From contig CATNEN010000038.1 in NCBI GenBank assembly GCA_950097015.1, forward strand, positions 33,170,001-33,234,000: a stretch of DNA of 64,000 nucleotides, read 5' to 3'. How positions within the stretch are numbered: position 1 is the stretch's first letter; each line of letters starts with the position of its first letter. Position numbers and translations under genes: made by a program. The stretch comes from Macrostomum hystrix. Its lineage: Eukaryota > Animalia > Platyhelminthes. This document shows, piece by piece, positions 10,040-50,261 of this stretch. The notes under the pieces were generated by a model, which did no database searches, was not told the DNA's origin, and saw only the letters and a program-made list of their open reading frames with translations.

Positions 10040-11624
10040 TAGTATTTGTCATGCTATCTCAGCCTAGAGACATCCAAACTCAGCCAGCCCATCTCGACAG
10101 TGCGATTTTTTACGTAAGCCAGTCGACTTTTACCATAGACATGCTTCTTAAGGCCATGCTATCTCAGCCTGAGACATGCAATCTCAGCCACTTTTCAGAT
10201 GCTATGTCAAGCTGTCTGTGGCTTAGTCTGTGATCGAAGCAAATGAAACAGAATGAGAACAACAAGCGACGAAGACAGAAGACGACTGATTGCTGCGTGG
10301 ACGGAAGGTCAGGACCTACGTGTGGCCGCCAAAGTTCTTCGCATGAATATGAAGACAGCTCGGCATATCGTCAGGATTTATGAAGCAACGGACCGGGTGG
10401 ATGCCCTCCCGCGAGGGGGAAGAAAGATTGGCTCATGCAAGTTCGATGAGGAGATGCGCCAGGCGCTTATTGCTTTCGTGGATGCGAACCCCCTGGCGAC
10501 GCTGAAAGCATTGCGCACGAAGCTGAGTGCCCAGCTTCCCAACAAGCCGCCTGTCACCATCAAGACACTGGCCAGAGCCTTGGAAGGGGCTTTGTACACG
10601 TTCAAGATCGCTACCAAGAACACTGACATCCGACTGAGCGCAAACTCGCAGGGGGTGATCGAGAAGAGACGCGAGTACGCGCTGCTCATGACCGAACTGC
10701 AACAGGACACGGTGGTCGTCTACATCGACGAAACGGGTTACAACCTGTGGACTCGCAGATCGCAAGGGTGGTCACGACGGGGTCAGCCAGTGAGGCGCCG
10801 ATGCCCGACCCAGAGGGGTCCAAATCTCTCGATCTGCCTGGCCGTGTCTTCCGCTTTGGGGCTGGTGAAGAGCGAGTTTTTCAGGGGAGGCCAGACGAAG
10901 GAGAGATTTCAGCACTTCGTCAACGACCTTGTTGAACAAGTTGTCCCGCAGATCGGCAATGCCAGAGTCGTCATTGTCTGCGATGGCCCCACCTTTCACC
11001 GTGGTGTGGCAGTGCCGGAGCAGCATCGCCACCAGTTTGAGCTTCATCTGTTGCCCGCCTACTCACCTTTTCTAAACCCCTGCGAAATGGCCCACAGCGC
11101 AGTGAAGGCCTCGATCAAGCTGCAGCTAGCTGACCCTGCACTGGTGGAGGAGGAGGCTGGTGGCCGACCCGATGGGGTCACCTGCGAAGCTTGGCGCCTC
11201 ATTCTCTTGGAGCGAGTGGGCCGAGTCGCGCTAGATGCTGTGACGCCGCTAAAGGTGGCCAGATGGGAGATTCACTGCAATCGGAACTTCCCGCAGTGTA
11301 TCGCAGAGCAGCCTTTCAACTAGGCTGAGCACTGAGCGTCTTACTGACTTTGTCCGTTGTTGCGTACGCTTACTGACTTTTCTTGTTGCGTTCATTCATT
11401 GCTGTTTGTTGCCATTTCATGTCACGTTACAGAAATGATAGCATTGAGATCTGTTTGCAATTGAAATCTATATTGGCTGAGATTGCATGTCCCAGGCTGA
11501 GATAGCATGGCCTTAAGAAGCATGTCTATGGTAAAAGTCGACTAGCTCGAGCCAAAAAACGCATTGCGGAATGGGACTGGCTGCGTTTGGATGTCTCTAG
11601 GCTGAGATAGCATGACAAATACTA
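10040..11624 (+). mobile_element. IS630/Tc1/mariner DNA transposon, apparently complete
   Basis: ~150-bp TIRs (10040-10190 and 11474-11624), TA on both flanks, and an intact transposase in between. Confidence 0.9.
10253..11323 (+). CDS. IS630/Tc1-like DDE transposase (DD33E spacing), 356 aa
   Basis: N-terminal HTH-like region with PRGG linker; YIDETG, VCDGPTFH, LPAYSPFLNPCE. Confidence 0.9.
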   Translation: MRTTSDEDRRRLIAAWTEGQDLRVAAKVLRMNMKTARHIVRIYEATDRVDALPRGGRKIGSCKFDEEMRQALIAFVDANPLATLKALRTKLSAQLPNKPPVTIKTLARALEGALYTFKIATKNTDIRLSANSQGVIEKRREYALLMTELQQDTVVVYIDETGYNLWTRRSQGWSRRGQPVRRRCPTQRGPNLSICLAVSSALGLVKSEFFRGGQTKERFQHFVNDLVEQVVPQIGNARVVIVCDGPTFHRGVAVPEQHRHQFELHLLPAYSPFLNPCEMAHSAVKASIKLQLADPALVEEEAGGRPDGVTCEAWRLILLERVGRVALDAVTPLKVARWEIHCNRNFPQCIAEQPFN

Positions 11625-20178: not shown

Positions 20179-21150
20179 ATGCATGCTGGAAGGCGACTAG
20201 AAGGCGCTTGGTCGAATGATAGGTTTCGAAAAAGTAGGTTCGAACCACGTACGAAGAGACCGGAAGAACCCACACTGCCGAAAGGAGAAGTGAAGACGCA
20301 AAAGCTCACCGAAAATTTGGTGAATAGACTGGTTGAATTTGTCAGTGACTACCCTACCGCTACGCTGGAGCAGATGAGTTCGCACCTGCTTCAGGGCAAC
20401 GACGATGACTTAAACATCAGTCTCAGTGCCATTAGTCGTGCTCTGGATGACCATTTGATCACACTAAGGCTTCTGCGCCAGGTCCCTGTTGATTGGAACA
20501 CGCGTCACGAAAGAAAGTCGCAGAATGCACGTGCAGTGGCTTCTGGATGAAGGCATCTTCTGTTCATGGACGAGTTCGGTGTGAACATCTATCTGGACGG
20601 CCAGAACTCAGGGTCGAGCCCCCAGAGGAATACCAGCAGTGACGGTGGTGAATAGTCAGCGAGGCCAAAATCTTACAATCTGCCTTGTCATCTCGCAACA
20701 GCTGGGGCTCGTGCACTACACGCTGGTCGAAGGTGGATTCTGAAACGAGCATTTCGTGGATTTTGTCTTGGTCCACCAGCTGGTGGAAGGAAACTTCGTG
20801 CTTCTGTCTGATGGCGCCCGTGCTCATCTGAATGCACCAAGGATGAGCGATGGCCACAATCACAGATTCCTTCCACCTTACTCGCCCTTCCTGAACCCGG
20901 CCGAAAGAGCGGGCGCTGCCATCAAGGCTGACCTGAAGAGACGCCTGCACGTGGGTGGAATTCAGGTGGATGTCGCCAACAGGCAACAGGCTGCAGCGCA
21001 TGACCTCACGTTGCATCAGCACAGGATGCACATCCTGAAACGCGAGGTTGCGCTATCCATGAGCAGCATCACGGCACCAAAGGTTCTGCAGTGGGTGAAC
21101 CACTATTGTACTTCCAGCGTTGTCTGAATCTCGATGACGTTTACTTTTAG
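20179..21150 (+). pseudogene. Decayed IS630/Tc1-like transposase, related to 10253-11323
   Basis: PTATLEQM..ISRAL, FMDEFG, LSDGARAH..LPPYSPFLNPAE; several frameshifts and stops. Confidence 0.8.
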
Positions 21151-22263: not shown

Positions 22264-22508
22264 ACCTCACTTAAATTCATGCGCTAAAAATACAACCCGC
22301 AAATTTATGTAACAGTCAGTAAGAAATCCCCGGGTTGTATTTAATTACAACCCGCAAATTGGCCATACACTTCGATACTGTATTGGGGGTGTGGGGGCGA
22401 AGCCTCCACATTCTATACCATAGACATATTTTCCTCGCTCGCACTCACTCTCTCTATTGAAATTGCAATTCAGCCCGGCTGTGTAGTCTATGGTTTTTTA
22501 TATAGCGA

Positions 22509-22850
22509 TTCTTATGCAGCAAAAGAGCCCGGCCGAGTCCTCTATGCTTTCTTATGCAGCAAAAGAGCCCGGCCGAGTCCCCTATGCTTTCTTATGCAGC
22601 AAAAGAGCCCGGCCGAGTCCCCTATGCTTTCTTATGCAGCAAAAGAGCCCGGCCGAGTCCCCTATGCTTTCTTATGCAGCAAAAGAGCCCGGCCGAGTCC
22701 CCTATGCTTTCTTATGCAGCAAAAGAGCCCGGCCGAGTCCCCTATGCTTTCTTATGCAGCAAAAGAGCCCGACTCAATCCTTAATGCTTTCTTATGCAGC
22801 AAAAGAGCCCGACTCAACCCTTAATGCTTTCTTATGCAGCAAAAGAGCCC
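22509..22850. repeat. 40-bp tandem repeat, ~8.5 copies
   Basis: Unit TTCTTATGCAGCAAAAGAGCCCGGCCGAGTCCCCTATGCT. Confidence 0.95.
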
Positions 22851-23227
22851 GCGACCCGCTTTGCTATAATTCTAAATTGATTACTACTGATAGCAATTGT
22901 TGCAGTGTTAGGTGCGAGATCAGTTGGCTGATTGAATACATATACCAGTCATGATAATTTTGTTTCAAATGGCGCAGTTGTGACAGCAGCGGAATGCAGT
23001 TCGAACATTCTATGAAATGAGTTTCATGCAGGGTATTATCTTACGTTAAATGATGACTGCAGCCCCATGCCACTGCCCGCACCTGAGTTAGGGACCCATT
23101 TCGCACTGTGATGATCGATCGAAATTTTTCCAATATACTGCGGGATATATAGTGACTATAGCGGTATTAGCTAGTGTTAGACGCGTTGCTGCTGCACTCA
23201 CGACATTGTTGGGTGCGTAGAACCACG

Positions 23228-23647
23228 ATGAATGCTCATCCTGTGGCGCTGTTCGGCTCGCCGGCCATCGTGGCACTCCTGGCCAGATGCGACATTGCCT
23301 GCCTGGCCCCGTTCCTGGCGCACCGAGGACGACTGGAGCAGCTGACCTGCCTGCAGCGCCACTGCCCGAATGCTGAGCTGAATGCCACCCAGCTACACAC
23401 CTTGCTGAAGAGCCTCCTGGACTGGCTGCTACAACACCAGACAGCTGCGGGCTACGAGACCATCCTGGAGGTGACCTGCCTAACAGAGAACGAGGCTTTC
23501 GACTTGGCCGAGCTGCTAGGCCTGCTGGAGGACACCTGTTCGGAGCTGCAGCACATTCTACACGGGCTGGACTACTGGCGCGGCGTGCAGCAAAGGGCAA
23601 GACTGCGAGAGTTGCTCCGGAGTCGCGAATATCGAATGGAGCAGTAG
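23228..23647 (+). CDS. Hypothetical 139-aa Leu-rich helical protein
   Basis: GC-rich intronless ORF, TATATA at ~23146, AATAAA at 23721. Confidence 0.6.
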   Translation: MNAHPVALFGSPAIVALLARCDIACLAPFLAHRGRLEQLTCLQRHCPNAELNATQLHTLLKSLLDWLLQHQTAAGYETILEVTCLTENEAFDLAELLGLLEDTCSELQHILHGLDYWRGVQQRARLRELLRSREYRMEQ

Positions 23648-23809
23648 CAGCAGCAAAAAGACTTAGCTAGACAGTTTAAATAACTTATCCCTGTTTGTGA
23701 ACCCAAACCAACTCTGCACCAATAAAAGAATGGTTTAGTATCAACTAAGTTGGCAGATCCAACTCGATACCGGTAAGTTTATTTTGGATAACCTAAAAAT
23801 AGACAGCAG

Positions 23810-23950
23810 AGTACAGTTCGTGGTGCGCGCACAATCCCTAAGAAATATATATACAAGACGATTCGATTAGAGCTGCTGCTTATCTACCTAAGAATAGCAG
23901 GCAAGTCCTTATATATTTTTAAGTAATGTGCGCGCACTATGAACTGTACT
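23810..23950. repeat. Imperfect hairpin site A (~41-bp arms)
   Basis: AGTACAGTTCGTGGTGCGCGCACAATCCCTAAGAAATATATA ... TATATATTTTTAAGTAATGTGCGCGCACTATGAACTGTACT. Confidence 0.9.
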
Positions 23951-24259
23951 TCTCGCTAAAAGTACACACTATCAACTTAACCGGGATCCGAATTAACCTA
24001 ATTAAGCACCTATTAATAGAATCTCAATCTATCAGTTTTTACTATAAGAAGTAGTAACAGTGGTACTATCTGCTGCTCATCCTAAATAGCCTGCTCCTTC
24101 TCCTTGGGATGTACTTGGGACTCTATTAATAGGGAATCCCACCATGTTGCACCCAGTTGAAGAAGTTGAGAACCTGGGACTGCGTTGGCTTTCTGCAGCC
24201 TGCTCATTTTCATACATCCAAATTTGAACGCGCCTATAATTAACCCGCGGAAGCACAGA

Positions 24260-25240
24260 ATGTCGTTCAATTTTTCTACCGGCTGCGACAGCGACGATGA
24301 ACGAATTGCGGCCGCGCTGGACGAGTTTGAGAGAGCTGCCCAAGATAGCAACTCCGCCGGGCCGGTAGCGTCATCAACTCACCAGCCACCATCACAGCGA
24401 AAAAGAAAGAGCGCTCCCTCTCAACGTCGCATTGTCAATGCAGCGGCAGCAGCAGCAGCTGCAGAATCTACGCCAGGCCCAAAGCGGTGCTGCCGTCCAG
24501 TGCAGACAGCAGCGGTGGCTAACATCAGCAGTGACGCCGACGACTTCAGCCTGCTGCCCCTGGCTTCTTGTTGGCCCACCAGCAGATGCGCGCCACGTTG
24601 CTGGGGGTCTTTAGAGATGTGCAGCGCCAGCGCCGGATTCGCAGGGAGCAGCTCGCCGGCTGTTCCGCATGCTCCACCGAGGCTGCCGACAACAGGAACC
24701 TGTGCCCGCTCCGAGAGGCCGTCTGCACAGCCCTTCGCCACCAGTCGGGCGTTGTCTATCTGTATGGGCCGTCGGGAGTCGGCAAGACCACCGCCGTCGA
24801 GCGCCACTTGGACCAGGAGCGCATTAAGCGCATTAAGCGCATTAAACGCATTCTGCCCGGTCATTAAGCGCTTCGGCGGTAATGACTTCATGTTCGACGG
24901 CCTGGACACCGCGCGCCACTCAGTCATCTTTCTGGACGAGGTGCGGCCGCACATGTTCGAGGGCGGCGACCTGGAGACCACGCTGTTGCGCCTGCTGAAC
25001 GGCAACAGCTTCCTGGTCAACGCTAAGCACCAGGCGCATGTCTACCTGGACTGGGGCCAACGGCTGGTAATCATGGCCGGCCACGCCTCACCTGACGATT
25101 TCCCGGCTGACGTGCAGCGGCGCCTGCGCAACGAGGGCAACACATGCGTCGAGGTCGACCACGACATCGAGGCCTGCCAGGGGGGGGTGCCGCCAGCAGC
25201 CGATGTTCGGAGCCGCCGCCGCCGCCAACGCCCAAGTTGA
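24260..25240 (+). pseudogene. SF3 helicase (CRESS Rep / parvovirus NS1-like ATPase) without HUH domain; two compensating frameshifts
   Basis: Walker A VYLYGPSGVGKTT (24766-24789, in the 24568-24867 frame); FDG, Walker B VIFLDE, B' LLRLLNG..VNAK and a motif-C-position VIMAGH in the 24185-25240 frame. Confidence 0.75.
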
Positions 25241-26437
25241 ATAATTGATGAGGCCGCCTAATGTCTGTCTGTCTATTGCAAAATTATTTCACCCCTGCAC
25301 CCGTATTTTGTCTCCACCACCATCTTAAAGCGGGTTAGCAGATGTGGGCATGCAGGCAGAAATAGCTAGACGGCCAAAATATTACATAACAAAATATTAC
25401 ATAGCACAAAATATTAGTCCTTATTGGGCTAAATAAGGAATGGCTTTTGAGTTCGGCTGTTTAACAGCACCATATATAATCTATACGTGGCACACTGTTG
25501 CAGAAAACGGGGTAGCAGAAATGTGCGCGGACTATAGCAATTTATAAAGCATTTGATGGGATTAGTTTAATTGAATAAAATAGCGCGCAGTGTTTTCCTT
25601 ATTCTAGTGTTTTTGTTGCTCGTCAGTCTAGATGTGCTAAGAGATGGAGATGGCATTTATTACTTGTTCTCAGGATCGCTTCTCGCTCTTATCTGATTGC
25701 TTTTATTTTGAGTTCTATTATTTCATAGTCAATATTTTCATTTAGCATATGTCGCAGGCTGTCGACAATTTCAATTGTCCCCATTTTATTCCCGTTCTAC
25801 TTTTTCTGTACCGGCTCCATTAAACTTTTTAATCCCTCACCGCCAACAAATAGTTGTTGTTGTTGCTGTTGCTGCTCTCCAACAAGTTAGATAGATGGGC
25901 AGCTAGAATAATTAACAATGATTGCCTACCTTGTGGAGCGCAGATAAAAATCACTTTAAATGCAGTCGTCGTCGTTGGGGTCGCAGCTGGAGCGGAGCAA
26001 TCGGAACAGTGTAGGGGGCAGTCGAAACGAAACAGTAGATCACGAAGGAGTTGATTTGGTTGATTAATAGAGTTGGGATTGAAAATCAAAGTGTAGCTTG
26101 GGAACGATCGAGTCTGTCTTAATCGATTGGCATAGAGAAATCAATCAGTGCGCGAGCTAGCTCTCTTTGACTTGTGTGCTCAAGATGAGCAATACAGTCC
26201 TTCCTGATAAAATTTAGTTTCTGTTGTGCAGTGTCAAAGCAGCCCGGCCCTAACGGCTTTCTCTCTTCTTCTTCTGTCTATGGTCCCGTTAAGCTAAGCT
26301 TCGCCTCAACTGTTGCACCCCTTTTACCCCCCCCCAAGCTAAACGTAAGAGTGACTACACGGCTTATTCGCACGCGCGGCTTTAACCCAAATACACTCGT
26401 TATATTCGCTATAAGAAGCTTCCTTTGAGTCTTGACA

Positions 26438-27150
26438 ATGGCGTCGCGGCTTGGCGACCTTTTTCTCGGCGATGCCGACCGTGCACTGATGTGGCTCAAG
26501 GCCTTCAATGCTCTGGCCCGCGCCAAGAAGTGGACCGACTCGACCGAATCCCGACAAGTCGCAGACAATTTTTTGGCATCCTGCGGACTGCCTGCTTTGG
26601 AGAAGCTGACTCATCTCGTCGCTCCGAAGGAGATCGACAAGCTGACCTTCCAAGAGATCGAGACAGCCCTGGTGTCCTACTTACAACCTCAGAAGCGCCT
26701 CATTGTCGCCGAAAGAACCGACTTTTTCTCAATTCGTCAGAAAGCTGCTGAGCCGATAGCAGACTATTTAGCTCGCCTGAGGAAAGCAGCAACGCACTGC
26801 GCCTTTGACTCTCTGAAGGACTGCGCCAGTCCCGCAGAGGAGCTGGTGCGGCTTACTCTCATTTCTGGACTGTACAACCCTGAGCATCAACGGCGCATTC
26901 TAGGTGCAATGCAAACCAAGGATCAGACAATCTCGGAGATTGTTGACCTCATTCGAAGTTGTGAACAGATCAACACGTTTGTTCAAACCTGTAACTCGGT
27001 GCCCCCGGTAGGCCCGGCTGGCCCATTGTCGCCGCCAGCCCAACATAATGCGGCCACTGACGAATCGGTGCACTACTCCAAAGGTGGACGGCCAACTTCC
27101 AATGGTCAGCGCATCGAGGGCTGCAAGTACTGTGGCGGATCCCATCACGC
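26438..27150 (+). CDS. Gypsy gag (frameshifted into pol inside the first zinc knuckle)
   Basis: MASRLGDLF..., ERTDFFSIRQKAAEPIADY, CKYCGGSH. Confidence 0.85.
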
Positions 27151-30100
27151 AAGGCAAGTGCCCGGCATATGGCAAGACCTGTTCCAAGTGCTCCAAGCGC
27201 AACCACTTTGCTGCCGTATGCCGCTCCGCTCTGACTAGCAAATCCGTACATCACGCGGATGTTCCATCCGATGCATCGATGACGCCCGAGCCCTCGAAGA
27301 TCCTGCATCTTATGGACGTTGATCTGGTCAACGCAATCGAAGTTGCATCTGAGACACTTCTTGTAGACGGCGCCAAGGTACCAATGCAAGTGGATACCGG
27401 TGCATCCGTCTCCGTGCTTTCTAGCACAATCTGGGAGTCTCTGGGCAGGCCCCCACTGCAAAAGAGTCACCGACGCCTCGAGGCCTACGACGGCCACACC
27501 CTAAAGACTCTCGGCAAGCTGTGCTCTACCGTCGAGATGCGGGGTAGGTTACACCCCGCCGAATTCGTCGTGGTTTCGTCTTTGAAGCCGTTCGGCCTCC
27601 TTGGCCGTGATCTTTTAGATTCCGACTCTCTCTTTCACACCAACTCTCAAGCTCCGAGCCCCACAGTTGCAGCTACAACGCTGCCCACCATCAAGGGCAT
27701 CAAGGCACAGATGGAGCTGGTTGAAGGCGCTCGATCCCAGTTCTGCCGTGCTCGTCCGGTTCCAATCGCACTAGAGAAGCAAGTCAACGCAGAGTTGGAC
27801 CGGCTGCAGCAGCTTGGCATCATCGAGCCTGTGGAGGGTCCTGTGAGCAACGCTTCTCCGGTCGTCTGGATCAAGAAGAAGGACGGGACTTTGCGCATGT
27901 GCGCCGATTACAAGGTCCATGTGAACGACAAAATAAAGCCAGAGTCATACCCTATTCCAAGCATCGAGCACCTCTTTGGCAAGTTAAAGAATGCCAAGAA
28001 GTTTGCCAAGATTGATCTGAGGTCGGCTTACTGGCAGATCGAGCTGGACGAATCCGCCCAAGGCATCTCTATCATCAATACCTCGCGAGGCCTATACCGC
28101 GTCAAACGCCTTCAGATGGGCATGAAAAACGCTTCATTCATTTTTCAACGCACAATGGAGAGCATCCTCTCCGACTTGAAGGGACTACTGATCTATCAAG
28201 ACGACATCATGGTCTATGCTGAGAACGTTGAAGCACTCCAGAAGCGTCTGAAAGCAGTCAAAACGCGCCTGGCCGAAAAAAAGGTAACGGTCAATGAAGA
28301 CAAATGTACAGGCATTTGCGATTCGATTTCATTCCTTGGATTCGAAATTTCTGCCGCTGGAATTCGGCCCGATGATAAGCTCGTGGACAAAGTTCGCCAC
28401 ATCTCGACACCGAAGACCAAGAAGGAGATCGAGCAATTTCTCGGTCTGGTGAATTTCTTCGGCCGCTTGATTCCTGACTATTCCGCCAAGGTCGCCCCAT
28501 TGAACGAACTGCGCAAGGCATCCACGCCGTTTGTCTGGTCTGAAGCATGTGCTCGCGCTTTCGAGAATCTCAAGAAGGAGATCTCATCACGACCAATAGT
28601 ACAACCGTACAGCCTGGAGAAGGAGGTGACCCTCACAACAGATGCCTCTAAAGGAGCGTTGGCAGGCGTTGTTACCCAGGAAGGACGCCCTGTAATCTTT
28701 ATCTCTAGGACACTGTCCAAGGCCGAGACTAACTATTCCAACATTGAACGGGAAGCACTCGCCATCTTCTGGGCCGTCTGTCGCCTGAAACACTACCTCC
28801 AAGGCCGACGATTTACGGTACAGACGGATCATCAGCCTCTTCTACGGCTTTTCGGTGGCAGCATACCAATGAGTTCATCGGCAAGAATCAGTCGCTGGGC
28901 CCTTTACCTGATGCAATTTGACTTTAGCGTGGTCTACGTTCCCGGATCGCGCATTCCGCATGCCGATGCGCTTTCTCGTCTGCCGTTTGATAATGACAGT
29001 CAAGACCCGGCCGATGCATTCGAGGCAATCAACTCAGTTGCCTTTGAATCCCCTACTATCAATCCTCGACGGATCGCTAGCGAACTTGATTCTGATCCAC
29101 TGCTACAGCGCATCATACGTCGCGTACGCAATGGCGACTGGCATAACTGCACACAAGCAGAGGCCGCTTTCAAGAGAAACGCAGCAGCTCTAACAATCGA
29201 GAACGGCCTCCTCTACATGCACCGGCGCGCATTCATACCTCCGCGTCTCCGGAAAGAGGCCTTCGATGCGATTCACGACACTCATAGCGGTACTTCTGCC
29301 AGCTACCACCTCCTGGAGCTGTCCTGCTGGTGGCCCGGCATGCAGCGCGACGTGGAACGATTCGTGCGGCAGTGTGCTGCATGCAGCAGCCTGCGGCCCC
29401 GACTGCAGAAGTCCCGAGATGCTTGGCCACCTGCTGATGCTCCATTTCAGCGCATCCACATGGACTGGGCCTTCGTGCCCGAGGTGGGCAACATTCTCAT
29501 TGTAGTGGATTCCTATTCCGGATGGATTGAAGCCTTTCCATCCCGCGACAGGACGGCAGACAGGGTTATTTGCTCGTTACGTACTGTATTCACGAGATTT
29601 GGAGTCCCAGAGGTGGTGGTCTCCGACAACGGACCGGAATTCACGTCTGATGCCCTGCTGTCCTGGCTGCATGCCAACGGCGCCCGAAAGATGGAAACCC
29701 CTCCCTACTCGCCACAATCTAATGGTGCGGCCGAGCGAGCAGTCCAAACTGTCAAGAGGGCCCTGCAGGCCTGGACACAGAGACTGACCCACTCTGACTT
29801 CATTGCGTTTTTGCAGAAGGTTCTGCTTCACCACCGCAACTCGTCAGGTGCAAGGTCAAAGACACCGGCTGAGCTCGTGTTCGGTCGACGACTTCGCGTA
29901 CCTGTTGTCTCGGCTTTCCAACAAGGTGACCAGGTCGTATACAAGGCCACCGACCACACCCCGTCCCGAGGCGCAGAGTTCCTCATGACCCAAGGGCGCA
30001 ACACATCCTGGTTGCTGACGGACGACAAACTGCGTCTGGCAAGCAACAATCAGATTGCCCCGATGCTTTCACGCACTTCTGAGGACGACGAGGACGAAAG

Positions 30101-30221
30101 TCTGGAGCCGCCGGCAGACATGCCTCCCAATGAAACCCCGACACCACCGGCTCCGGTAGCAGATCAAGTTCCGCGCAGGGGTGACCGAAATCGGCGACAG
30201 CCAGACCGATACACACCCTGA
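27151..30221 (+). CDS. Gypsy pol: protease, RT, RNase H, integrase
   Basis: VDTGAS, YQDD, TDASK..TDHQPL, H-H-C-C zinc motif, HMDW, SDNGPEF, SNGAAER. Confidence 0.95.
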
Positions 30222-30935
30222 CACTGTGACGGTTGATATGTTGCCCTCCCGATAAGACTAACATAGCCACAAAAAATAGCCACATGCGCTCGTTGTTTTG
30301 TTTCATTTGACTGGAGGGAGACATGTTGTGCAGTGTCAAAGCAGCCCGGCCCTAACGGCTTTCTCTCTTCTTCTTCTGTCTATGGTCCCGTTAAGCTAAG
30401 CTTTCTATGTGCCTAACCTTTGTCTATGTCTTGAGTTTATCGCATTCCTTTATTAATAGTAGTCTAAAAATAATTTTACACACAGGCAGTTGTTATTTGC
30501 TTATTTGGGCGCTAATTATGTTATTTAACTTATAATAATTGAGCTATAATAATTTGAGTAAGTATACTAGTATATGGTATGAAAAGCTGACTGCATGCAT
30601 TAATATGTGAATAAAGGACATAAATCAAGAAAAAGCATTCGATCAAGAACTACATGTAGTAGACGGTACGTATGCATATGAAAAATCGGCAATTAACTAA
30701 TTTAAGATGAAAATCAACAAGCGGCATCTGCAATAACAAGCAATTAAAATACATGTAGTAATGATGTGTGCATTAAAATACAATTTGGATAGACGCAAAA
30801 AGCTATACATATAATATAGTAGTACGATTTAATAACGGCAATTAACAGCTGCATATAGTGCTACTCAGTTATTTATAGATTTTATATAAGAAACTAAAAT
30901 TTCAAATTCGCGCTAAATTCTACGAAATTCAATGT

Positions 30936-31051
30936 GTACAGTCTGTAGTGCGCGCACATTCCCTAAAAATATATAAGGCATGTCTGCTCTAATTTTAGAA
31001 CGACGATCCTTATATATTTTTTTAGTATTGTGCGCGCACTATGAACTGTAC
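30936..31051. repeat. Imperfect hairpin site B
   Basis: GTACAGTCTGTAGTGCGCGCACATTCCCTAAAAATATATAAGG ... CCTTATATATTTTTTTAGTATTGTGCGCGCACTATGAACTGTAC; homologous to site A with a different loop. Confidence 0.9.
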
Positions 31052-31253
31052 CTAAATCTAAAATTAAATTGCTTACTTGACTACTATAAGTAGAGCAGTT
31101 AGCAGCATTTGTTTAATAATTGTCATATAAATCTATGGCTAATTAAATAATTCTATCAACAGAAACAATAAAGTATAATATTATCAACGGGAGTAATCAA
31201 TCAAATACAATCAATATTCTCAACTATAGCATATAATCAATTATAATAACATT

Positions 31254-31291
31254 AGCGTATAAAGCGCGCACATGTGCGCGCTTTATACGCT
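31254..31291. repeat. Perfect 38-bp palindrome
   Basis: AGCGTATAAAGCGCGCACA|TGTGCGCGCTTTATACGCT. Confidence 0.95.
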
Positions 31292-31540
31292 GCACAGTAA
31301 CACAGTCAAACGAATTCAATCAGCCCTCCCTCCAAGGCCTGTGCATGTTTTCTCTGCGTGTTTTCTCTCTGTCCCGGCCCCCTTTATCTGCCCCACGGTG
31401 TTTTTGACTCACTATTTAAATATTTAAATATATATATACAATATATATATATAAAAAATACTATATATATATTGTATATATAAAATCTTAGATAAAGCAG
31501 GCAGACAGACAGGCGGGCAGGCAGGGCGAATCATTCAAAT

Positions 31541-34373
31541 TTAATGTTCCGCCACTGAGTGCAGCCGCCGTCGCTTTCCGGCCACCGGTCTATCGTGCAG
31601 GACTGCGTCGGCTCGTTGGGTGCTCGCCGCCATCTCACCACTTCCACCAGCCAGGCTGCTGATGAGTCCCTGGGTCGGCGGCCTAACTATCGGTGGCATC
31701 TGCTCGACATCTGATGGCACCACAAATCGGCGGACAATGTCGCGGCTGCGAATCACCGCGCCCATCTCCGTGGCCATCTGCGCGTTGTGACCATAGTTGA
31801 ACCGGATGACAGCTGCAGATGTGCCGTGCGCTCTGGCGAAGACATCTAGCTGCTCCGGCTCCATCATGAGCACTACGGCACAGAGGGTGCGACGCCAGTG
31901 CGTGGCCACATAGTGCCGACCCAGTACTCGCTGCCCGCCTGCGCTGATCATGCGGCTCATTGCCGACTGGCTGTACACGCCGCCGAACACATCTATGAAG
32001 ACCGTCGGCGACTCCGGTTGCTCGATGCCGCGAGCAGCAAGCGACGGCACGATGTATTCGTCGTGCAGGCGCAGCAAGGCCTCACAGAATAGATCCGGCA
32101 GCACCATCCTGGCTGGGTCGCCGGAGTGTCTGACCTTGTGCGGCACTTCACGCAGCGGCAGGACGAGGTGTGAGTGCCCAGCCAGATCGGCAGCGGACGG
32201 CGCGCTCTCCCCATCTGCACTTTGCGTGTGTTGGCGGAACAGCTGTTTTTGGTCGGCCGACGCGTTCCGACGAACCGACCGATCAACCAAGTGTCGCCGG
32301 CGGATGTAGATCCAAGGCAGGAGTCGCAGGGGCTGCTCAATGCTGCAGAAAAACAGCATTTCCTGCACAATCCTCCGCAGACAAACCATCCGGCGACTGA
32401 AGGCACCATCATCTACCGCATCCTCCCTGATGGTGATGCTATCTGCAACGGCTGCCTGCATGCACCACTCGCCGTCTACGGGCAGCGAAGTCCAGCTGTG
32501 CCTTTGTAGCATGGCAAAAAAACGATCACGGCGGGCGAACACGGCATCGACCTCGTCCACGTTGACGTAGGTGTCCATGAAGGCCACCTGCCGCTCGTTG
32601 TGGCCAAGCTTGTAGACTGCCTGCATATAGTATAAATGTGGTTGCGTTTACTTATAGTAGATAGCAGCACGAAACCAAATAGAACTAACTGTCATTAATG
32701 CAGCTGCTGTGCAGCTAGCTCACCTGCTGGATGGCGCGGACGTTGCCGAACTCGCCGCGAGCCTGCTGCACCACGCTGCTAAGGCGGGCGATGAGAGCCT
32801 GCTCAGCCGCCAGCGGGTTGTTGGCCTTCTGCGCCAACTGCAGTCTCCAGCAGACGCCACTGCCGACAGAGTCGACGTCCTCAATCGCAGGGCGCTCGGT
32901 GTCAGGCGAGGGTGAGTCGATGCTGCAGAACAGCTCGGCTTCGCGCAAGCCAACGGCGGCCATGATGGCATTGGCGCCTCGCAGGCCCCTCACGCGCAGC
33001 CAGCCCTCCATGCAGCGGCAGATGCTGACAAGCTCCTGGCACTTGCGCGCAGCAGTCGACTGGGCCAGCTGCATGGCATCACTGACTGTTTCAGCGCTGA
33101 AGCAGTCCTGCACCCTGTCCGGCTGAAGCAGCAGGTCTGCAAGCGATATGCCCGCTCGCTGCCAGGTGCGTAGAAGCGTCGAGCTCACGGACCTGCTGAT
33201 GTCGCGCCAACGCTGCTGGTGGCACAAGTTGGCCGCAATCCTGGCCCGCGATGGGTCCCTCCACCATAGCTCCCGCAGGCGTTCCACCGTTGCGGAGATG
33301 CTGGGCCGGTCACCCAACGGCTGCAGCAGCTCTGGTGGCACGGGCTTCGCAGGTGGCGACGTGCGAAAGTGTCGACAGCGCGGACCGCGACGCTGTTGCT
33401 GCTGCTTCTGATCGGCTGTCGACGCTTCCTGCTGCAGTTCTGCTCCGAAGATGGACAATCGAAGCCGGTCGAATTCGGCATTAGCCAGCCTTCTCTTTGC
33501 AGCAGTCCACTTTGCTGCAGCTGCTCGACGCTGCCTCGGCGGGGTAGCTGCCAGCTTCACTAGCGGCCTCTGTGCAGCTGACAGCACAGCCGATGACGTG
33601 CTGGGACGACAAAGTGCTGCCTTGGTGGCCTGCACCGCCAACTGCAGACAGGCAGCCGAAGAGGAAGACTCTGCTGCCACCGTCTGGACCGTCGGCAGCG
33701 TCCGCATTCTGATGCTGGTTCCGGGCAGCAGCTCCTGCAAGCCGACATCGTCATCTCCATCATCGTCATCGTCAGCGACTACGGGGGCCTCCTGTGAGGA
33801 CATCAGCAGCAGCGGCGCAGTCGGGTCAAATAGGCGTCGCCGGACGGCTGGACGGCTGGCTGACGACAGCCGAGCACTGGCCGCTGACTGTCGACCGTCA
33901 ACGGATGGCGCGGCGATGCTGTAGAGCTCGGCCAACAGAGACCCAGCCTCGTATTCAGCTGGTTCTGCCTCTGAAGGCTGCTGCGGAGGCGGTGGTGGCA
34001 TCTGCTGCGGAGGCTGTGGCTGCTGGTGTTCCACAGCAACGGTAGCGACAATAGCTGGCACTGCTGGACACCTGTGCTGCCTTGCTGTCCTACGCAGCAC
34101 CTTGCCGCAGGCTGGGCACGCGTGTACATGCTCAGTGTTGGCTGAGCTGCGCGTGTGGGTGCTGCACGTCAGGCAGAGCCAGACCATCTGGGCACGCTGC
34201 TTGGCTGACGCCGCTGCCCAAGATGCCTCGGACGGCCGCACCTTGACTGGGGCATCCTCGAGTCGGAATTGGCGCACAGCCTCCTCCGCGTGCCTCCTCA
34301 GGAAGTGGCGTTTCGGGTGCGTCTGCGGTCTGCCGTCGCCACAGAAGATGCAACACGACTCGTTGTCTGTCAT
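31541..34373 (-). CDS. Two-exon zinc-finger tyrosine recombinase, ~909 aa (exons 34373-32724 and 32620-31541)
   Basis: Phase-0 GTGAG...ATGCAG intron 32723-32621 joins the two ORFs in frame (IQQ|AVYK). Exon 2 has QPLR, PHK, THWRR, AHGTS and FNY in R-K-HxxR-H-Y order. Exon 1 has CIFC..H..H, CLTC and CPAC..HRC clusters. Confidence 0.75.
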
Positions 34374-34456
34374 AGCTATTGTTATTACAAATTGATGCAG
34401 TGCCATATAGGTGTATGAACTGAATTCAGTATGCATGCTCAATCAACACATGCTAT

Positions 34457-34558
34457 GTACAGTCCGTTGTGCGTACATCTAAATAAATATATATATGCCC
34501 CTATATCCCATTGTGGAATACACTATTTTAAGTGTTGTGCGCGCACATTGTTCCGTAC
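34457..34558. repeat. Degenerate hairpin site C, upstream of the recombinase
   Basis: GTACAGTCCGTTGTGCGTACATCTAAATAAATATATAT ... TATTTTAAGTGTTGTGCGCGCACATTGTTCCGTAC. Confidence 0.7.
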
Positions 34559-35354
34559 TGTTGTCATCGCTGCTGCATTTATATTCGATTGAGTGCTGCG
34601 TTGAGCACAGAAATCACTTATTTTTATGTTGTCCCTAACAACAACAACAACAACAACATCCCGGCTGTAAAAATTATAAGCCTCTGAATCATTTATAAAT
34701 TTTAAAAACATAATTTTTCATTTGCAATGTAGTACAATCAGCTCAGACATTCGATTTTCCAGTGAACAGCACACCCACCCCCTCCAACTCGATCTTCCTC
34801 CCTCAAAAGCAGTGCCGAGCCAGCCAGCCAGACCTGTAGATGGAAAGAGAGACGACTTCGATCGTCTTCAGTCTATGGCCACAGGGGTGACATTATCGAT
34901 TGGTTAAAGCAGACACACTGCTTCTCTTTTTCAAGGCAGAGCAGTGGCCTTCCACACCCTTTTACCATAGACTATGAATTTAGAGACAGGGCCGTCCCCT
35001 TTCGCTTTCGAAGGTTTAAAGAAAGGGTGGCAAGCAAAGTAGCAGTCTTTTAGTTTTAGCCCGACCCAACTGCTCGATCGAACTGCAGCTTACAGTCAAA
35101 TATAATTCAGAGATCCATCCACAATTCGAATCAACAGTCAGCCTTCTATTTGCTTGGACAAAGTTAAAACTGGCTACAGATATTATACCGACAGAGAGCC
35201 ACAGGATCTATTATTATGTCAACAGCGAGCATTAGGATCTAATATATTTCTACGCAGCTCAGAACTGCATTACAATTACTGAGATTACTAATATATTATA
35301 ATTATAGAGAACTGCATGCGCTATTAACTATTATATTTACAGACCGATTGTTAT

Positions 35355-35513
35355 ATGTATACAAACACTAATTGCAGGGCCTATTATATATACAAATACT
35401 AATAGCAGGGCCTATTATATATACAAAGACTAATTAAAGGGCCTATTATATATACAAATACTAATTGCAGGGCCTATTATATATACAAAGACTAATTAAA
35501 GGGCCTATTATAT
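35355..35513. repeat. 31-33-bp tandem repeat, ~5 copies
   Basis: Unit TATATACAAATACTAATTGCAGGGCCTATTA. Confidence 0.9.
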
Positions 35514-36522: not shown

Positions 36523-37530
36523 ATGGCAGAACGAAGACTTATTTTAAACCTGTTGGTTGATTATTCTAAAAAATACGTTGGAGACTATGATCCAAATAAG
36601 CTTATGGTGGACGATTTAGACCTAGTGCTGGACGCTGGTGAAGATTTGCGAAACCCTTACACATTGCAAGAGGTGCGGTCATCGCGTGAAGAACCTGGTC
36701 CATCAATGCTGCCCAAGGACTTGACTCTCGATATGTTTTGATCAGTTAATGAGTCGACAAAGCCTGCCAATACCGCCAATCGGAACAAGTGGTCCGCTGG
36801 CGTCTTTGATTGGTGGCGCTCTGGCCGTTACAACGATTCTATTCGTGCTGTGCAAGAACTTAGTGATGAGCTAAACGAATTCCTTCCTGTTTTCATTCAT
36901 GAAGTGACCTGTGCCGATGGGACTCAATATCCGCCAAACACACTTGTGTCAATTGTTGCTGGTCTGCAACAAACTATCTGCAAGGTGAGTAAAGTTGATT
37001 TCTTTCGCAGTGAGTGATTCAGCATTGTGCGTGAAAGTCTGGACGCCCCATGAAGATTGGGATAAGAAATGGCTTAGGACTAGCCAGGAAATCTGCTGAA
37101 GTTGTTGGCTATGAAGATCGGGAGAAACTTTGGGAGAAAGTGTTGGGCGACAAAGATCTTACGAGTCTGATCAGAGCTTTGTTTTATCTCAACGGCTTGC
37201 ATTTTGCTCTACGTGGCGTTCAGGAACATAGTGCCCTGTGTATTTCGCAATTCAATGTGCAAGAGCAAGAGGGACAGAAATTTATTGTTTACATAAAGAT
37301 GACCACGAAGACGAATGCTGGTAGATTGCGCGACACTCGCTTCAAACGAAAGGAAGTTCTTCACTTCGCCAATACAGCCAATCCGGAACGTTGTCATGTT
37401 CGGCTTTTCAAGCTTTTTAAGAAATCCAGGCCTAGCCAGAGTAATAGATTTTACCTTCTGCCGCTGAAGCAACCATCAGAGAAGCAATGGTACTCGAATC
37501 GTCCAATTGGCGAAAACACCCTGACAAAAT
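36523..37530 (+). pseudogene. Crypton (DUF3504-type) tyrosine recombinase, N-terminal part
   Basis: PANT..NKWS, FIHEV..DGTQYPPNTL, FALRG, KTNAG, NPERCHV, WYSNRPIGENTL; contains stops and frameshifts. Confidence 0.85.
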
Positions 37531-38481
37531 TAAAGAGTACAATACTTTTTCTAAAAACTAAAATTGTCATTGTCATTTGTCAACATAGCTAACATCAGAA
37601 ATAACATTTTCATTTTCTATTCCTTTAAATTCTGAAAGACATTGACCTGTTTTGATCAATCCAGGCTTTCTCTGGATTGATCCTATATGCCATCTAACTT
37701 GAACTTACTAATGTCGCACGTGTTAGGTTTAATGTCGATTGGCCTTCACATTGGCCTTTAGTTTAACTCTTTTAAATATCAATGAAAGGAATTTGCTCTG
37801 AAATAAAATATATGTTTTCTTTAATTACAATGCAATATAACACAAATGTCATTTTTAGTGCGTTCTACTGATTGACTTTTGTTTCTTCGATTATACTTCC
37901 CTGAATATCGATCGATCGGAATATCTGTCGGCGAAAGTAAAAAAGGTGCATGTATGTGACTTTCGTCCGCGCGGATTCTATTGCGGTAAAAACCGCATTG
38001 TGATGTGTGAACACAACAATGGGGTTTTCAATGAGGTTTTTATGAGGGAATTACCGCATTGAACCAACTATATGTATTTTAATTCAGTTAATATATCACA
38101 TATCAAATATTAAATTCATTATTTATATACAACTTCTGATGCGGTATTTAAAATGTAAGACTTTTAATGCAGTTTTCGATGTGGTTTTCAATGCAGTATT
38201 TATGTACAACTTTTGATGCTTTTTTGGATGGGGTATTTATATATGACTTTATGCTCTATTTATATTTAAATCCCTGCGAAGGTCTTTTCCAGGATGTATT
38301 TTTACCTGATAAAACAAACACCGAACTAGAATTCGTATTTTTCGAGTTTTATATTTTATAGTTCATTCTGGATGTCAAAAAACGAGACTATGCATATAAC
38401 TAAAAAAGAAAATTTGCAGGTCTTTTTAGTGCGTAGATCAGTTTTTAGTTATTAACAGTTGGGTTCATAGCATGCATGTAA

Positions 38482-38795
38482 TCAATTTTTGATGATGAAT
38501 GAGCAGTTATTAAAACTGAAATTCAGCTGACGCTCACAGCAGACGCTAGCTACATCTGTCTCAGCCTTGCGTAGTATTCTAGTGTCCAATACAGCGCAGG
38601 AATTGGCGATTTGAATGTCGGACGTCCGCTTGTACGTGCGGACTCCAGCCAAACTTCGGTGACCTGTTCGTTCCATTATTTGCTGTTCTTCAACGCCAGC
38701 TTGGTAAAGACGTGTAGCACATGTAGCGCATAGACTATGATTAGTCTTGTGGCCAGAAATCTCGGCTTCAGTGCACATTTCATGCATAAACTTTG
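38482..38795 (-). pseudogene. Crypton tyrosine recombinase, C-terminal catalytic part (inverted)
   Basis: TNHSLCAT (HSLR with R>C), IMERTGHRS..VRTYKR. Confidence 0.85.
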
Positions 38796-39789
38796 TATAT
38801 ATACGAGTACAAAGATATGGCCCTTGCCTTATAACTTTTAAATATGGTTTGGCAATTGGCAGTGCTTATTGTCAGGGTACCATGCCAGTAACTTTGTTTA
38901 ATACACTCTAATCTTGTTTTAATTATTAGAGATTCAAAAAACAATGTTGTTGTAGGCCCCTTAGCCTAAAACATAATAGTTCCTAGTCCTAGGCCTAGTT
39001 CCTAGGACTACTTTTAAATTTATTATCTTCATCTTATTGTTCTATGGTCTAGTTGACTAATGCTAGGCCAATGCTAGACATATCTATAAATTAGCTAGAC
39101 AAGATAGGCTTAAGCTATTTTTATAATATGTTAGAGTAGCTAGCTATATATATTCTTTTATTTGATTTCTCTAAGTAGGGCCTAATGTAGACACAATATT
39201 ATTGAAAAGAAGAAAAAATTAAATTGCATATAGGTGTATTTCTTTTTCATTTGTTAAGTTGATAGCTAGCTATATAGTTAACCTCATAAATATAATGGGT
39301 TACAATTGCGTTTGTCATATACTCATTACTAGTTCAACATCAAAATTATTATTACCTAGCTATTGAGTATTGTATTAATTAGCTAGCATGTTCCAGTTCA
39401 GAGTTTTGCATATTATTAAAGGTTATTTATAGCTTTTAAAATAAAATTTCAAATTTGAAGCTATATATACAAACAGCTAGCCCTAAATAGAATGAATCTA
39501 TAATAAATAAAGCTTTTTACAAAAATAATTGTCTAATCCTTTTAGTTTTGTCATTTATAAAATTTGAGTTCTAAACAACCATTACTATCATTTACTATTT
39601 ACGTCGTACAATTATAGATTAAAGAACAATATTTATTGTTATAAATTTGCCGATTTAACAAATTGCTTCTATTGCATACATTTTATTACTTTTCTAAAAC
39701 AATTGTCTCTTACAATTTATAGTAATAAGACCAGTTGCAGTTGAAGTAGAAATATATGTTTATATATATCTTATATTTTTATTTTTTGT

Positions 39790-49883: not shown

Positions 49884-50261
49884 TGGCAAATTAATTGTCT
49901 TAATGGATGCCACCTGCTACTTTCAGTAACAGTCAGTGTGCTAAGTAACCTTTTTTTCTTTTGTATGTTTCACGTATGTTTCACGTTTTTAAGCTGAATG
50001 CTAAATGAGATTATCGCTTACATTTGCGATTGGCTGCTGCATTCAATACAGAAATTTCTGTATTGACAGGGTACAGTTTGTACAGGTACAAAGGCGAATG
50101 TACAAATCAGGAGTACATATGCAACAGATATTGATTTAAAGGTATGAGAGCTGCATGGTTTGTTTCTTCAAATTTATTCACCCATCGCTTTGTCTATAAA
50201 AAGCATTTCGTATATCTGAACACTTTTATCGGATTTTTGTCTTCATTGTCTAAGCAAAGTA

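What the first reader, a model, noticed from the sequence alone, without database searches (positions are those of the whole stretch)
23140..34560. Candidate unclassified mobile element: zinc-finger tyrosine recombinase + nuclease-less SF3 helicase + small ORF, punctuated by shared hairpins
Seen: removing the Gypsy insertion (26222-30403) leaves ~7 kb with three GC-rich genes in AT-rich spacers that carry the same hairpin motif. Established: eukaryotic tyrosine-recombinase elements (DIRS, Crypton) do not encode SF3 helicases; CRESS/parvovirus helicases are fused to an HUH nuclease; a recombinase plus SF3 helicase pairing occurs in virophages and phage satellites. Inference: this is a capsid-less integrating replicon or satellite in which the recombinase does integration/excision and possibly strand opening, and the helicase drives replication.
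Basis: partly seen in the sequence, partly recalled or inferred. Interest (0 to 1): 0.9.

Follow-up and report, generated by a model that had tools for sequence, protein, structure and literature searches.

The report
Flatworm recombinase-plus-viral-helicase mobile element
A flatworm genome carries a roughly 7-kb stretch in which a gene folding like a DNA cut-and-rejoin enzyme (tyrosine recombinase) faces a virus-type DNA helicase gene, both bracketed by the same hairpin sequence, and it is likely a so far undescribed capsid-less element that would excise, copy and reinsert itself, although its ends and its movement are not shown.

Summary
The anatomy is real. The host is a Macrostomum-type flatworm. 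The minus-strand gene is a spliced, about 909-aa zinc-finger protein whose C-terminal domain folds as a tyrosine recombinase (AlphaFold pLDDT 76; XerH Z 11.4; R-K-R-Y kept) of a small family that Pfam misses. The plus-strand gene is an SF3-type helicase closest to CRESS-virus Rep helicases, 67% identical to a Macrostomum lignano protein. Two strong hairpins and one decayed one share arms found nowhere else in the window. The Gypsy is a later insertion (empty site in 2 of 4 runs). Differences between copies are mostly synonymous. Best reading (0.5): a low-copy, capsid-less integrating replicon. The recombinase-helicase-inverted-repeat module is known from polinton-like viruses, but there with D5 primase-helicases and capsids. 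Nine literature searches and the scan's earlier findings showed no match.

The parts
23228..23647 (+). Small ORF, 139 aa, predicted helical by eye, no family; probably shared with another, higher-depth repeat, so membership is doubtful
   Evidence: No Pfam or PDB match; one weak PHROG match E 0.0025; 22900-23474 at high depth in X1 and X4, and a different left flank at 23170 in X2; 2 of 4 listed differences synonymous
23810..23950 (.). Hairpin H1: about 42-nt imperfect inverted arms (GTAC end, GC-rich palindrome, AT tract) round a branched loop
   Evidence: z -7.2; arms 85-93% alike to those of H2
24260..25240 (+). SF3-type helicase gene, broken in this copy near 24560 and 24820-24860; Walker A at 24766, Walker B at 24923, motif C region at 25067; Cys/His cluster before the ATPase domain
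   Evidence: 67% to M. lignano BOX15_Mlig013629g1, E 1.7e-45; that protein's nearest Atlas clusters are CRESS/RNA_helicase type, 0.94-0.96; 14 of 16 changed codons synonymous against X2
26222..30401 (+). Gypsy LTR retrotransposon, later insertion, not part of the element
   Evidence: gag, protease, RT, RNase H, integrase; empty site in X1 and X2
30936..31051 (.). Hairpin H2, between the convergent gene ends
   Evidence: z -10.0; its right arm plus about 55 bp also occurs in another context in X5 and X6
31254..31291 (.). Perfect 38-bp palindrome sharing the GCGCGCACA motif of the hairpin arms; candidate recombinase core site
   Evidence: 100% complementary, z -6.1; an X2 contig joins 24038 to 31264
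31541..32620 (-). Recombinase gene exon 2: tyrosine-recombinase catalytic domain (R101, K164, R245/R246, Y278 in the 309-aa query that starts at 32626)
   Evidence: Atlas 0.97 to a cluster with Phage_integrase 17%; model pLDDT 76, pTM 0.74; XerH Z 11.4, rmsd 3.5, 188 aligned; residues kept in homologues
32621..32723 (-). Predicted GT-AG intron, 103 nt, phase 0
   Evidence: Sequence; one contig of X6 (RNA is a guess, depth 5) skips from 32617 to 32724, starting exactly at the GT
32724..34373 (-). Recombinase gene exon 1: N-terminal C2H2-like and Cys-rich fingers, low-complexity linker, helical region
   Evidence: Sequence; same order in M. lignano P0014, 1084 aa, finger region 29% over 93 aa, E 1e-4
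34457..34558 (.). Hairpin H3, decayed copy upstream of the recombinase gene
   Evidence: Arms match at 5-6 mismatches in 22; z -0.5

Best explanation
This is a tyrosine-recombinase gene and a CRESS-type SF3 helicase gene bracketed by shared hairpins in a flatworm chromosome, and it is likely a low-copy, capsid-less integrating replicon in which the recombinase would cut and rejoin at the shared inverted-repeat sites and the helicase would open those sites so that the DNA is copied. Shown: both folds or motif sets, the intron-type gene structure, the shared sites, adjacency of the two genes without the Gypsy in other individuals, and selection on both proteins. Inferred: (1) the zinc fingers and recombinase bind the GCGCGCACA-containing arms or the 38-bp palindrome and excise a circle; (2) the helicase loads at the GC-palindrome/AT-tract arms as an origin and host polymerases copy the circle, in the manner of polyomavirus T antigen or papillomavirus E1 (recalled analogy); (3) the recombinase resolves dimers and reinserts the circle. 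The recombinase is unlikely to be the priming nickase, since it blocks the 3' end. The window copy is probably dead: helicase broken, Gypsy in the spacer.
For: Recombinase fold: ranks 1-10 of the PDB Foldseek list are Xer/integrase chains (best E 6e-3); VIA Z 11.4 XerH, 11.1 and 10.7 other recombinases, unrelated rows at about 5 or less. R kept in 6 of 7 rows that cover it, K 6 of 6, RR 6 of 6, Y 6 of 6 (three of the rows are near-identical M. lignano copies). Helicase nearest to CRESS/RNA_helicase clusters; Pfam RNA_helicase E 0.006 over Walker A to B'. Shared arms only inside the unit, all six arm ends read GTAC. Spacer between the genes is contiguous without the Gypsy in X1 and X2. 14 of 16 changed helicase codons synonymous against about 0.27 expected (p 7e-6 tested against 0.32); 5 of 5 listed changes inside the recombinase domain (31727-32315) synonymous, 1 of 3 in the tail (only the best-supported differences are listed by the tool). 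A diverged family (25% identity) has 6 members in one 90% cluster plus one more in M. lignano, and X2 holds an internally deleted derivative (32239 to 32532, depth 100), both usual for mobile elements. An outdoor metagenome (X9) holds pieces of all three genes at about 89-95%.
Against: No ends, target duplication or empty site of the unit; no second locus where both genes are linked (no genome held; scans of viral and metagenome contigs empty). Depth over the genes is near that of the flank in X2 (about 490-1000 against 440-790; Gypsy 1320-1750), so no sign of a burst or of abundant free circles (the tool warns that depth is no copy number). The His of the usual R-H-R-H/W-Y set is not kept in homologues (D or T), and a Thr-Ser stands where His/Trp is usual. 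Helicase motif C lacks the usual Asn (recalled). The region upstream of the helicase domain could not be read in an unbroken copy. The M. lignano copies may partly be assembly or polyploid duplicates (recalled). The H2 arm occurs in another context, at higher depth in X5.
Confidence: 0.5

Rival explanations
1. Same unit, but the helicase is a full rolling-circle Rep: an HUH nuclease lies in the part that the window copy lacks, the hairpins are nicked origins, and the recombinase only integrates and excises.
For: The main X2 helicase contig has at least 315 letters unlike the window upstream of 24562, whose last 30 read like the N-terminal part of P0001, while X2 also covers 24277-24381. The helicase is CRESS-like. 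P0001 begins with a short hydrophobic stretch that could be a Rep motif I (UUTU, PMC6668415 passages).
Against: P0001 is annotated as 252 aa, has only about 90 residues before Walker A, no HxH and no YxxK there, and the window's 101-aa N-terminal piece has neither. No longer homologue among 291 candidates of 222-2000 aa (weak). No CRESS-type nonanucleotide loop seen by eye.
Confidence: 0.17
2. It is the left-over replication and integration module of a virophage, polinton-like or other DNA virus whose capsid genes were lost here or lie on other hairpin-flanked segments.
For: Best viral fold matches are a Tetraselmis virus 1 protein (E 7e-4) and a Qinghai Lake virophage protein (E 1.8e-3). Inverted repeat + helicase + tyrosine recombinase is described as an end module of polinton-like viruses (PMC11296320 passages); one virophage family favours circovirus Rep-like replicases (10.64898/2026.10.13.758929 passages). 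The H2 arm occurs beside other sequence in X5 and X6.
Against: No capsid, packaging ATPase, PolB, primase or D5 match in 28 window ORF scans; helicase is CRESS-like, not D5/TVpol; spliceosomal-type intron; both genes under purifying selection between copies; no relatives in IMG/VR by four protein scans (close relatives only). The fold E-values are near those of phage integrases (3.9e-3), so they do not single out virophages.
Confidence: 0.17
3. Chance neighbours in a transposon graveyard: a Crypton-like recombinase element, an endogenous Rep fragment and three insertions of a Tc1/mariner-type MITE.
For: The arms can be read as TA + CAGT..., like Tc1/mariner ends (recalled); the window is full of unrelated elements; the H2 arm occurs elsewhere; the small ORF is in another repeat.
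Against: Three copies within 6.6 kb and none in the other 53 kb; all six ends are GTAC, so the G and C are part of the motif and not random flank; hairpin bins show no raised depth in X1-X4; the palindrome and further 11-mers (intron and spacer) are shared too; both genes are rare and diverge in parallel.
Confidence: 0.09
4. A linear replicon with hairpin telomeres: the enzyme is a telomere resolvase acting on the 38-bp palindrome, and the chromosome holds an integrated replication intermediate.
For: Perfect palindrome; a protelomerase cluster appears at rank 30 of 30, score 0.92; an X2 contig ends a spacer-1 stretch in the palindrome.
Against: TelK Z 6.5 and TelA Z 5.0 and 4.9 against XerH 11.4; genes on the two sides of the palindrome are not mirror copies.
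Confidence: 0.07

Closest known systems
End module of polinton-like viruses and virophages (inverted repeat, helicase, tyrosine recombinase; PMC11296320, PMC4642659, passages read)
   Same: Tyrosine recombinase next to an SF3 helicase and inverted repeats proposed as both origin and recombination substrate; top two viral fold matches are from an algal giant virus and a virophage.
   Different: No capsid, penton or packaging ATPase; helicase CRESS-like and not a D5 or TVpol primase-helicase; about 7 kb against 14-40 kb; intron; three internal hairpins instead of terminal repeats; host is an animal.
Crypton DNA transposons (PMC3212892, passages read)
   Same: Eukaryotic DNA element with a tyrosine recombinase, no reverse transcriptase, ends hard to see, circular intermediate proposed.
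   Different: Cryptons encode the recombinase alone or with GCR1_C or a C48 peptidase, and have 4-6-bp direct repeats and no inverted repeats; this recombinase has no DUF3504 match and no similarity to the DUF3504 Crypton at 37035 (hhalign probability 0.2%).
Planarian virus-like elements PEVE and PIVE (PMC3198968 passages; original paper not held)
   Same: Flatworm host, SF3 helicase genes, inverted repeats; about 7.5 kb with two unique regions between inverted repeats (size and layout recalled).
   Different: Their helicases are Rep/NS1- and E1-like; no recombinase is mentioned in the passages read; sequences could not be compared here.
CRESS-DNA virus Rep and endogenous Rep elements (PMC6668415, PMC3198968, passages read)
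   Same: Helicase domain type and motif order; stem-loop DNA.
   Different: HUH motifs II and III not found in the readable parts; no capsid; recombinase partner not described in the passages read.
Xer/Cre/integron tyrosine recombinases
   Same: Catalytic fold (Z 9-11) and R-K-R-Y residues.
   Different: 8-14% identity; N-terminal zinc fingers; His positions replaced.

Membership tests
Tyrosine recombinase superfamily | Catalytic-domain fold | tested here: met
   pLDDT 76 model; XerH Z 11.4, rmsd 3.5, 188 aligned; Foldseek ranks 1-10 recombinases, none at E 0.001 or better
Tyrosine recombinase superfamily | R-K-H-R-H/W-Y catalytic residues | tested here: inconclusive
   R, K, R, Y kept across homologues; the two His positions are not; placement rests on alignment and recalled motif spacing, not on a structural overlay
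SF3 helicase | Walker A, Walker B, B' and C within about 110 residues | tested here: met
   GPSGVGKT, VIFLDE, VNAKHQ, VIMAGH in order in window and P0001; Atlas neighbours RNA_helicase/CRESS; motif C lacks the usual Asn (recalled); Pfam RNA_helicase below its cut-off
CRESS-DNA virus Rep | N-terminal HUH nuclease with motifs I-III | tested here: inconclusive
   No HxH or YxxK in P0001 residues 1-92 or the window's N-terminal piece, but at least 315 letters of another copy could not be read
CRESS-DNA virus / parvovirus | Capsid gene | tested here: not met
   No ORF left for one between the hairpins; small ORF has no family match. Other loci not testable
Polinton-like virus / virophage | Major and minor capsid protein and packaging ATPase | tested here: not met
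   None in the unit or among the window ORFs scanned against Pfam; Pfam would miss divergent capsids in the unassigned flanking ORFs
Polinton-like virus / virophage | pPolB or primase-helicase (TVpol, AEP-D5) replicase | tested here: not met
   Helicase is CRESS-like, 252 aa in M. lignano, no primase or D5 match
Crypton | Recombinase of a Crypton clade (DUF3504 or other) | tested here: inconclusive
   No DUF3504 hit and no likeness to the neighbouring Crypton; profiles of CryptonF, S, I and others were not available
Crypton | 4-6-bp terminal direct repeats, no inverted repeats, no helicase | tested here: not met
   Long inverted repeats and a helicase are present; no convincing terminal direct repeat
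DIRS/Ngaro retroelements | Reverse transcriptase and RNase H in the same element | tested here: not met
   The only RT is in the Gypsy, which is absent from other alleles
Telomere resolvase replicons | ResT/TelK-type enzyme and hairpin ends | tested here: inconclusive
   Lower fold scores (Z 6.5, 5.0) than Xer-type enzymes; hairpin ends not testable on contigs
Mobile element of any kind | Defined ends and an empty site | not testable with these tools
   No genome held; both read-laying runs used

The most novel reading that the evidence does not exclude
A new class of eukaryotic DNA transposon: a self-copying element that pairs a zinc-finger tyrosine recombinase with a nuclease-free CRESS-type helicase, built of gene cassettes each closed by the same hairpin site, so that the recombinase can excise, shuffle and reinsert single cassettes much as an integron does, present as several old families in flatworms and in unnamed environmental eukaryotes.
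Probability: 0.3. Interest if true: 0.9.

Novelty: new variant of a known kind. Interest (0 to 1): 0.7.

Why it matters
Eukaryotic DNA elements are sorted by their core enzymes (DDE, HUH, tyrosine recombinase alone, PolB plus integrase). A recombinase plus CRESS-type helicase element in an animal would add a combination that my searches did not find, link small single-stranded DNA viruses to integrating elements, and give a free-standing example of the mobile 'end module' proposed for polinton-like viruses. The recombinase family escapes Pfam, so it is invisible to repeat annotation; M. lignano is a tractable laboratory animal in which ends, circles and target sites can be tested, and a new eukaryotic site-specific recombinase may be of use as a tool.

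Tried and rejected
No whole genome was held. Pfam, PHROGs and PDB sequence searches did not name the recombinase. Word-based homologue searches gave 0 hits for exon 2 among 7,999 candidates and only P0010 for the alignment. The top hit of the representatives search, P0002 (7,287-aa nematode repeat protein), is a repeat artefact with no tblastn match to the window and was dropped, leaving 8 of 9. A single-sequence fold failed (pLDDT 31); the second job went to the recombinase alignment, so helicase and small ORF were not folded. Scans of viral contigs and metagenome contigs gave no related locus; the arm pattern gave 2 viral matches, both inside coding sequence without a partner arm and with no related protein at E under 0.04, taken as chance. 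No plasmid or phage match for the helicase. No Rfam match. No RNA holder is on record. Holes in X1 and X3 at 34675-35145 prove nothing about the right end. Short direct repeats at trial ends were no better than chance. The PEVE paper is not held. Look-ups of earlier findings by sequence and place were empty. Rejected: recombinase as priming nickase (blocked 3' end); domestication as host genes (broken window copy, deleted derivative, several copies of a sister family; not excluded).


Full report
Setting. The window is eukaryotic and repeat-rich: Gypsy, Tc1-type, Helitron and Crypton pieces lie around the finding. The closest named relatives of both enzyme genes are from the flatworm Macrostomum lignano, so the host is a Macrostomum-type flatworm. 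No whole genome was held, so copy number, ends and linkage elsewhere could be approached only through contigs of public runs.

The Gypsy. 26222-30401 encodes gag, protease, RT, RNase H and integrase between identical short LTRs, with TTTC on both sides. Contigs of 2 of 4 runs (X1, X2) join 26217 to 30402 with 255 or more letters on each side. It is a late insertion, and the helicase side and recombinase side are adjacent in other individuals. What remains is 6,566 bp from first to last hairpin, 7,148 bp with the small ORF.

The recombinase. Two minus-strand ORFs are separated by a 103-nt GT-AG intron in phase 0, giving about 909 aa. One contig of run X6 (RNA is the tool's guess, depth 5) skips exactly from the GT donor to within a few letters of the predicted acceptor, a joint not listed for the deep DNA run X2: partial support. 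Pfam, PHROGs and PDB sequence searches see nothing. The Atlas places exon 2 at 0.97 with a cluster carrying Phage_integrase in 17% of members. HMMER over 1.84 billion representatives gave 9 hits; 1 is a repeat artefact, 8 are real at 30-36% local identity, from M. lignano and from unnamed metagenome records. P0014 (1084 aa) has the same order, fingers first and recombinase last. With these 10 rows the model reached pLDDT 76. It matches XerH (Z 11.4, rmsd 3.5, 188 aligned), a staphylococcal integrase (11.1), XerA (10.7), type IB topoisomerases (9.9-9.5), Cre (9.8) and, lower, TelK (6.5); Foldseek agrees without reaching E 0.001 in PDB and ranks a Tetraselmis virus 1 protein and a Qinghai Lake virophage protein first among viral models, closely followed by phage integrases. 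R, K, R and Y are kept (6 of 7, 6 of 6, 6 of 6, 6 of 6 covering rows; three rows near-identical), the two His positions are not. It is unrelated in profile to the DUF3504 Crypton next door.

The helicase. Walker A (24766), Walker B (24923), B' and a motif-C strand (25067) follow in SF3 order, split over two frames in this copy. The M. lignano protein P0001 (252 aa) is 67% identical over both pieces; its Atlas neighbours are CRESS-virus and RNA_helicase clusters at 0.94-0.96. Against X2, 14 of 16 changed codons are synonymous where about 0.27 is expected, so sister copies are selected as protein; contigs of X2, X3 and X4 differ in length from the window at the second break. At the first break the main X2 contig continues for at least 315 letters unlike the window, and the 30 letters shown read like the start of P0001. 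The window copy therefore lacks part of the upstream region, and 'nuclease-less' cannot be settled from it. P0001 has no HxH or YxxK before Walker A, which favours a short helicase if its annotated start is right.

The hairpins. H1 and H2 fold far better than shuffles (z -7.2, -10.0), H3 has decayed (z -0.5), and a perfect 38-bp palindrome (z -6.1) shares their GCGCGCACA core. The arm occurs only inside the unit. Bins holding the hairpins show no raised depth in X1-X4, which speaks against a many-copy MITE, with the caution that contig depth is no copy number. Against a closed three-hairpin unit: the H2 right arm plus about 55 bp lies in another context in X5 and X6, at higher depth in X5, and an X2 contig joins 24038 to the palindrome. 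The sites are thus used in more than one arrangement.

The small ORF. No family. Its first half lies on a contig at depth 137 in X1 and 41 in X4, against about 2-17 over the enzyme genes, and X2 shows another left flank at 23170. It may belong to a neighbouring repeat or to a non-autonomous relative.

How it most likely works. Shown: enzyme types, gene structure, shared sites, adjacency, selection. Inferred: the recombinase excises a circle at the shared sites; the helicase opens the GC-palindrome/AT-tract arms and host polymerases copy the circle (analogy to T antigen and E1, recalled); the recombinase resolves and reinserts it. I give this 0.5. A full HUH Rep version (0.17), a virus remnant (0.17), chance neighbours (0.09) and a hairpin-telomere replicon (0.07) are the rivals.

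Comparison with what is known. Polinton-like viruses carry a recombinase with an SF3 helicase (PMC4642659, passages), and an inverted repeat-helicase-recombinase end module that may be mobile has been proposed (PMC11296320, passages); all are defined by capsid genes and use primase-helicases or PolB (also 10.64898/2026.06.19.733378, passages). Cryptons have the recombinase without helicase or inverted repeats (PMC3212892, passages). Planarian PEVE/PIVE have SF3 helicases and inverted repeats, with no recombinase in the passages seen (PMC3198968; PMC6186406; the original paper was not held and its layout is recalled). PMC11071296 (passages) has a recombinase only with a primase-SF2 helicase in a capsid-bearing virus. 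PMC6668415 (passages) gave the Rep motifs. Nine full-text searches (listings only, apart from the papers named) showed no element with this pair in an animal; Repbase, subscription journals and supplements were not seen and may hold one. Earlier scan notes: none on this DNA or look-alikes; one warns that a missing capsid on a cut contig proves nothing, which applies less here because both flanks are host repeats; several concern a different recombinase-RecQ fusion in fungi.

Verdict. A real, selected, apparently undescribed pairing in an animal genome; it works like the integration-replication module of polinton-like viruses but fails membership of that group, of Cryptons and of DIRS. Mobility as a unit and the lack of a nuclease are not shown. 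Novelty: new variant of a known kind, with a 0.3 chance of being a new transposon class. Interest 0.7.

Noticed in passing
window 37035-37592 (+) and 38482-38865 (-): A DUF3504 Crypton piece (E 2e-25) and a Phage_integrase C-terminal piece (E 5e-9) on opposite strands, 2.5 kb from H3: a rearranged or double Crypton, unrelated in sequence to the recombinase studied.
   Followed up: partly
window 50220-61375: Helitron (Helitron_like_N, PIF1) with a long 22-aa repeat ORF and a nearby RPA OB-fold gene.
   Followed up: no
window 22470-22870 and 35350-35510: Tandem arrays of 40 bp and 31 bp on either side of the unit; they could be subterminal arrays of a larger element, and 22900-23474 is at high depth in two runs.
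   Followed up: partly
window 26222-26299 and 30324-30401: The Gypsy has very short (about 78-80 bp) identical LTRs that begin TG but do not end CA; depth about 2.5 times the flank in X2.
   Followed up: no
window 32239-32532: A 292-base deletion derivative of the recombinase gene is present in DNA run X2 and in the X6 contig that also lacks the intron.
   Followed up: partly
P0001 Atlas neighbours: A 174-member cluster of 237-aa proteins, mostly eukaryotic, commonest Rotifera, scores 0.95: short SF3 helicases may be common in bdelloid genomes and are worth checking for a linked recombinase.
   Followed up: no
P0006, P0008, P0011-P0015: M. lignano recombinase homologues are labelled 'Ras-GEF domain-containing' or 'C2H2-type' in UniRef; the Ras-GEF label looks wrong.
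   Followed up: partly
window 10247-11323 and 20179-21127: Two IS630/Tc1-type DDE_3 transposase genes, the first with an open 358-aa frame.
   Followed up: no
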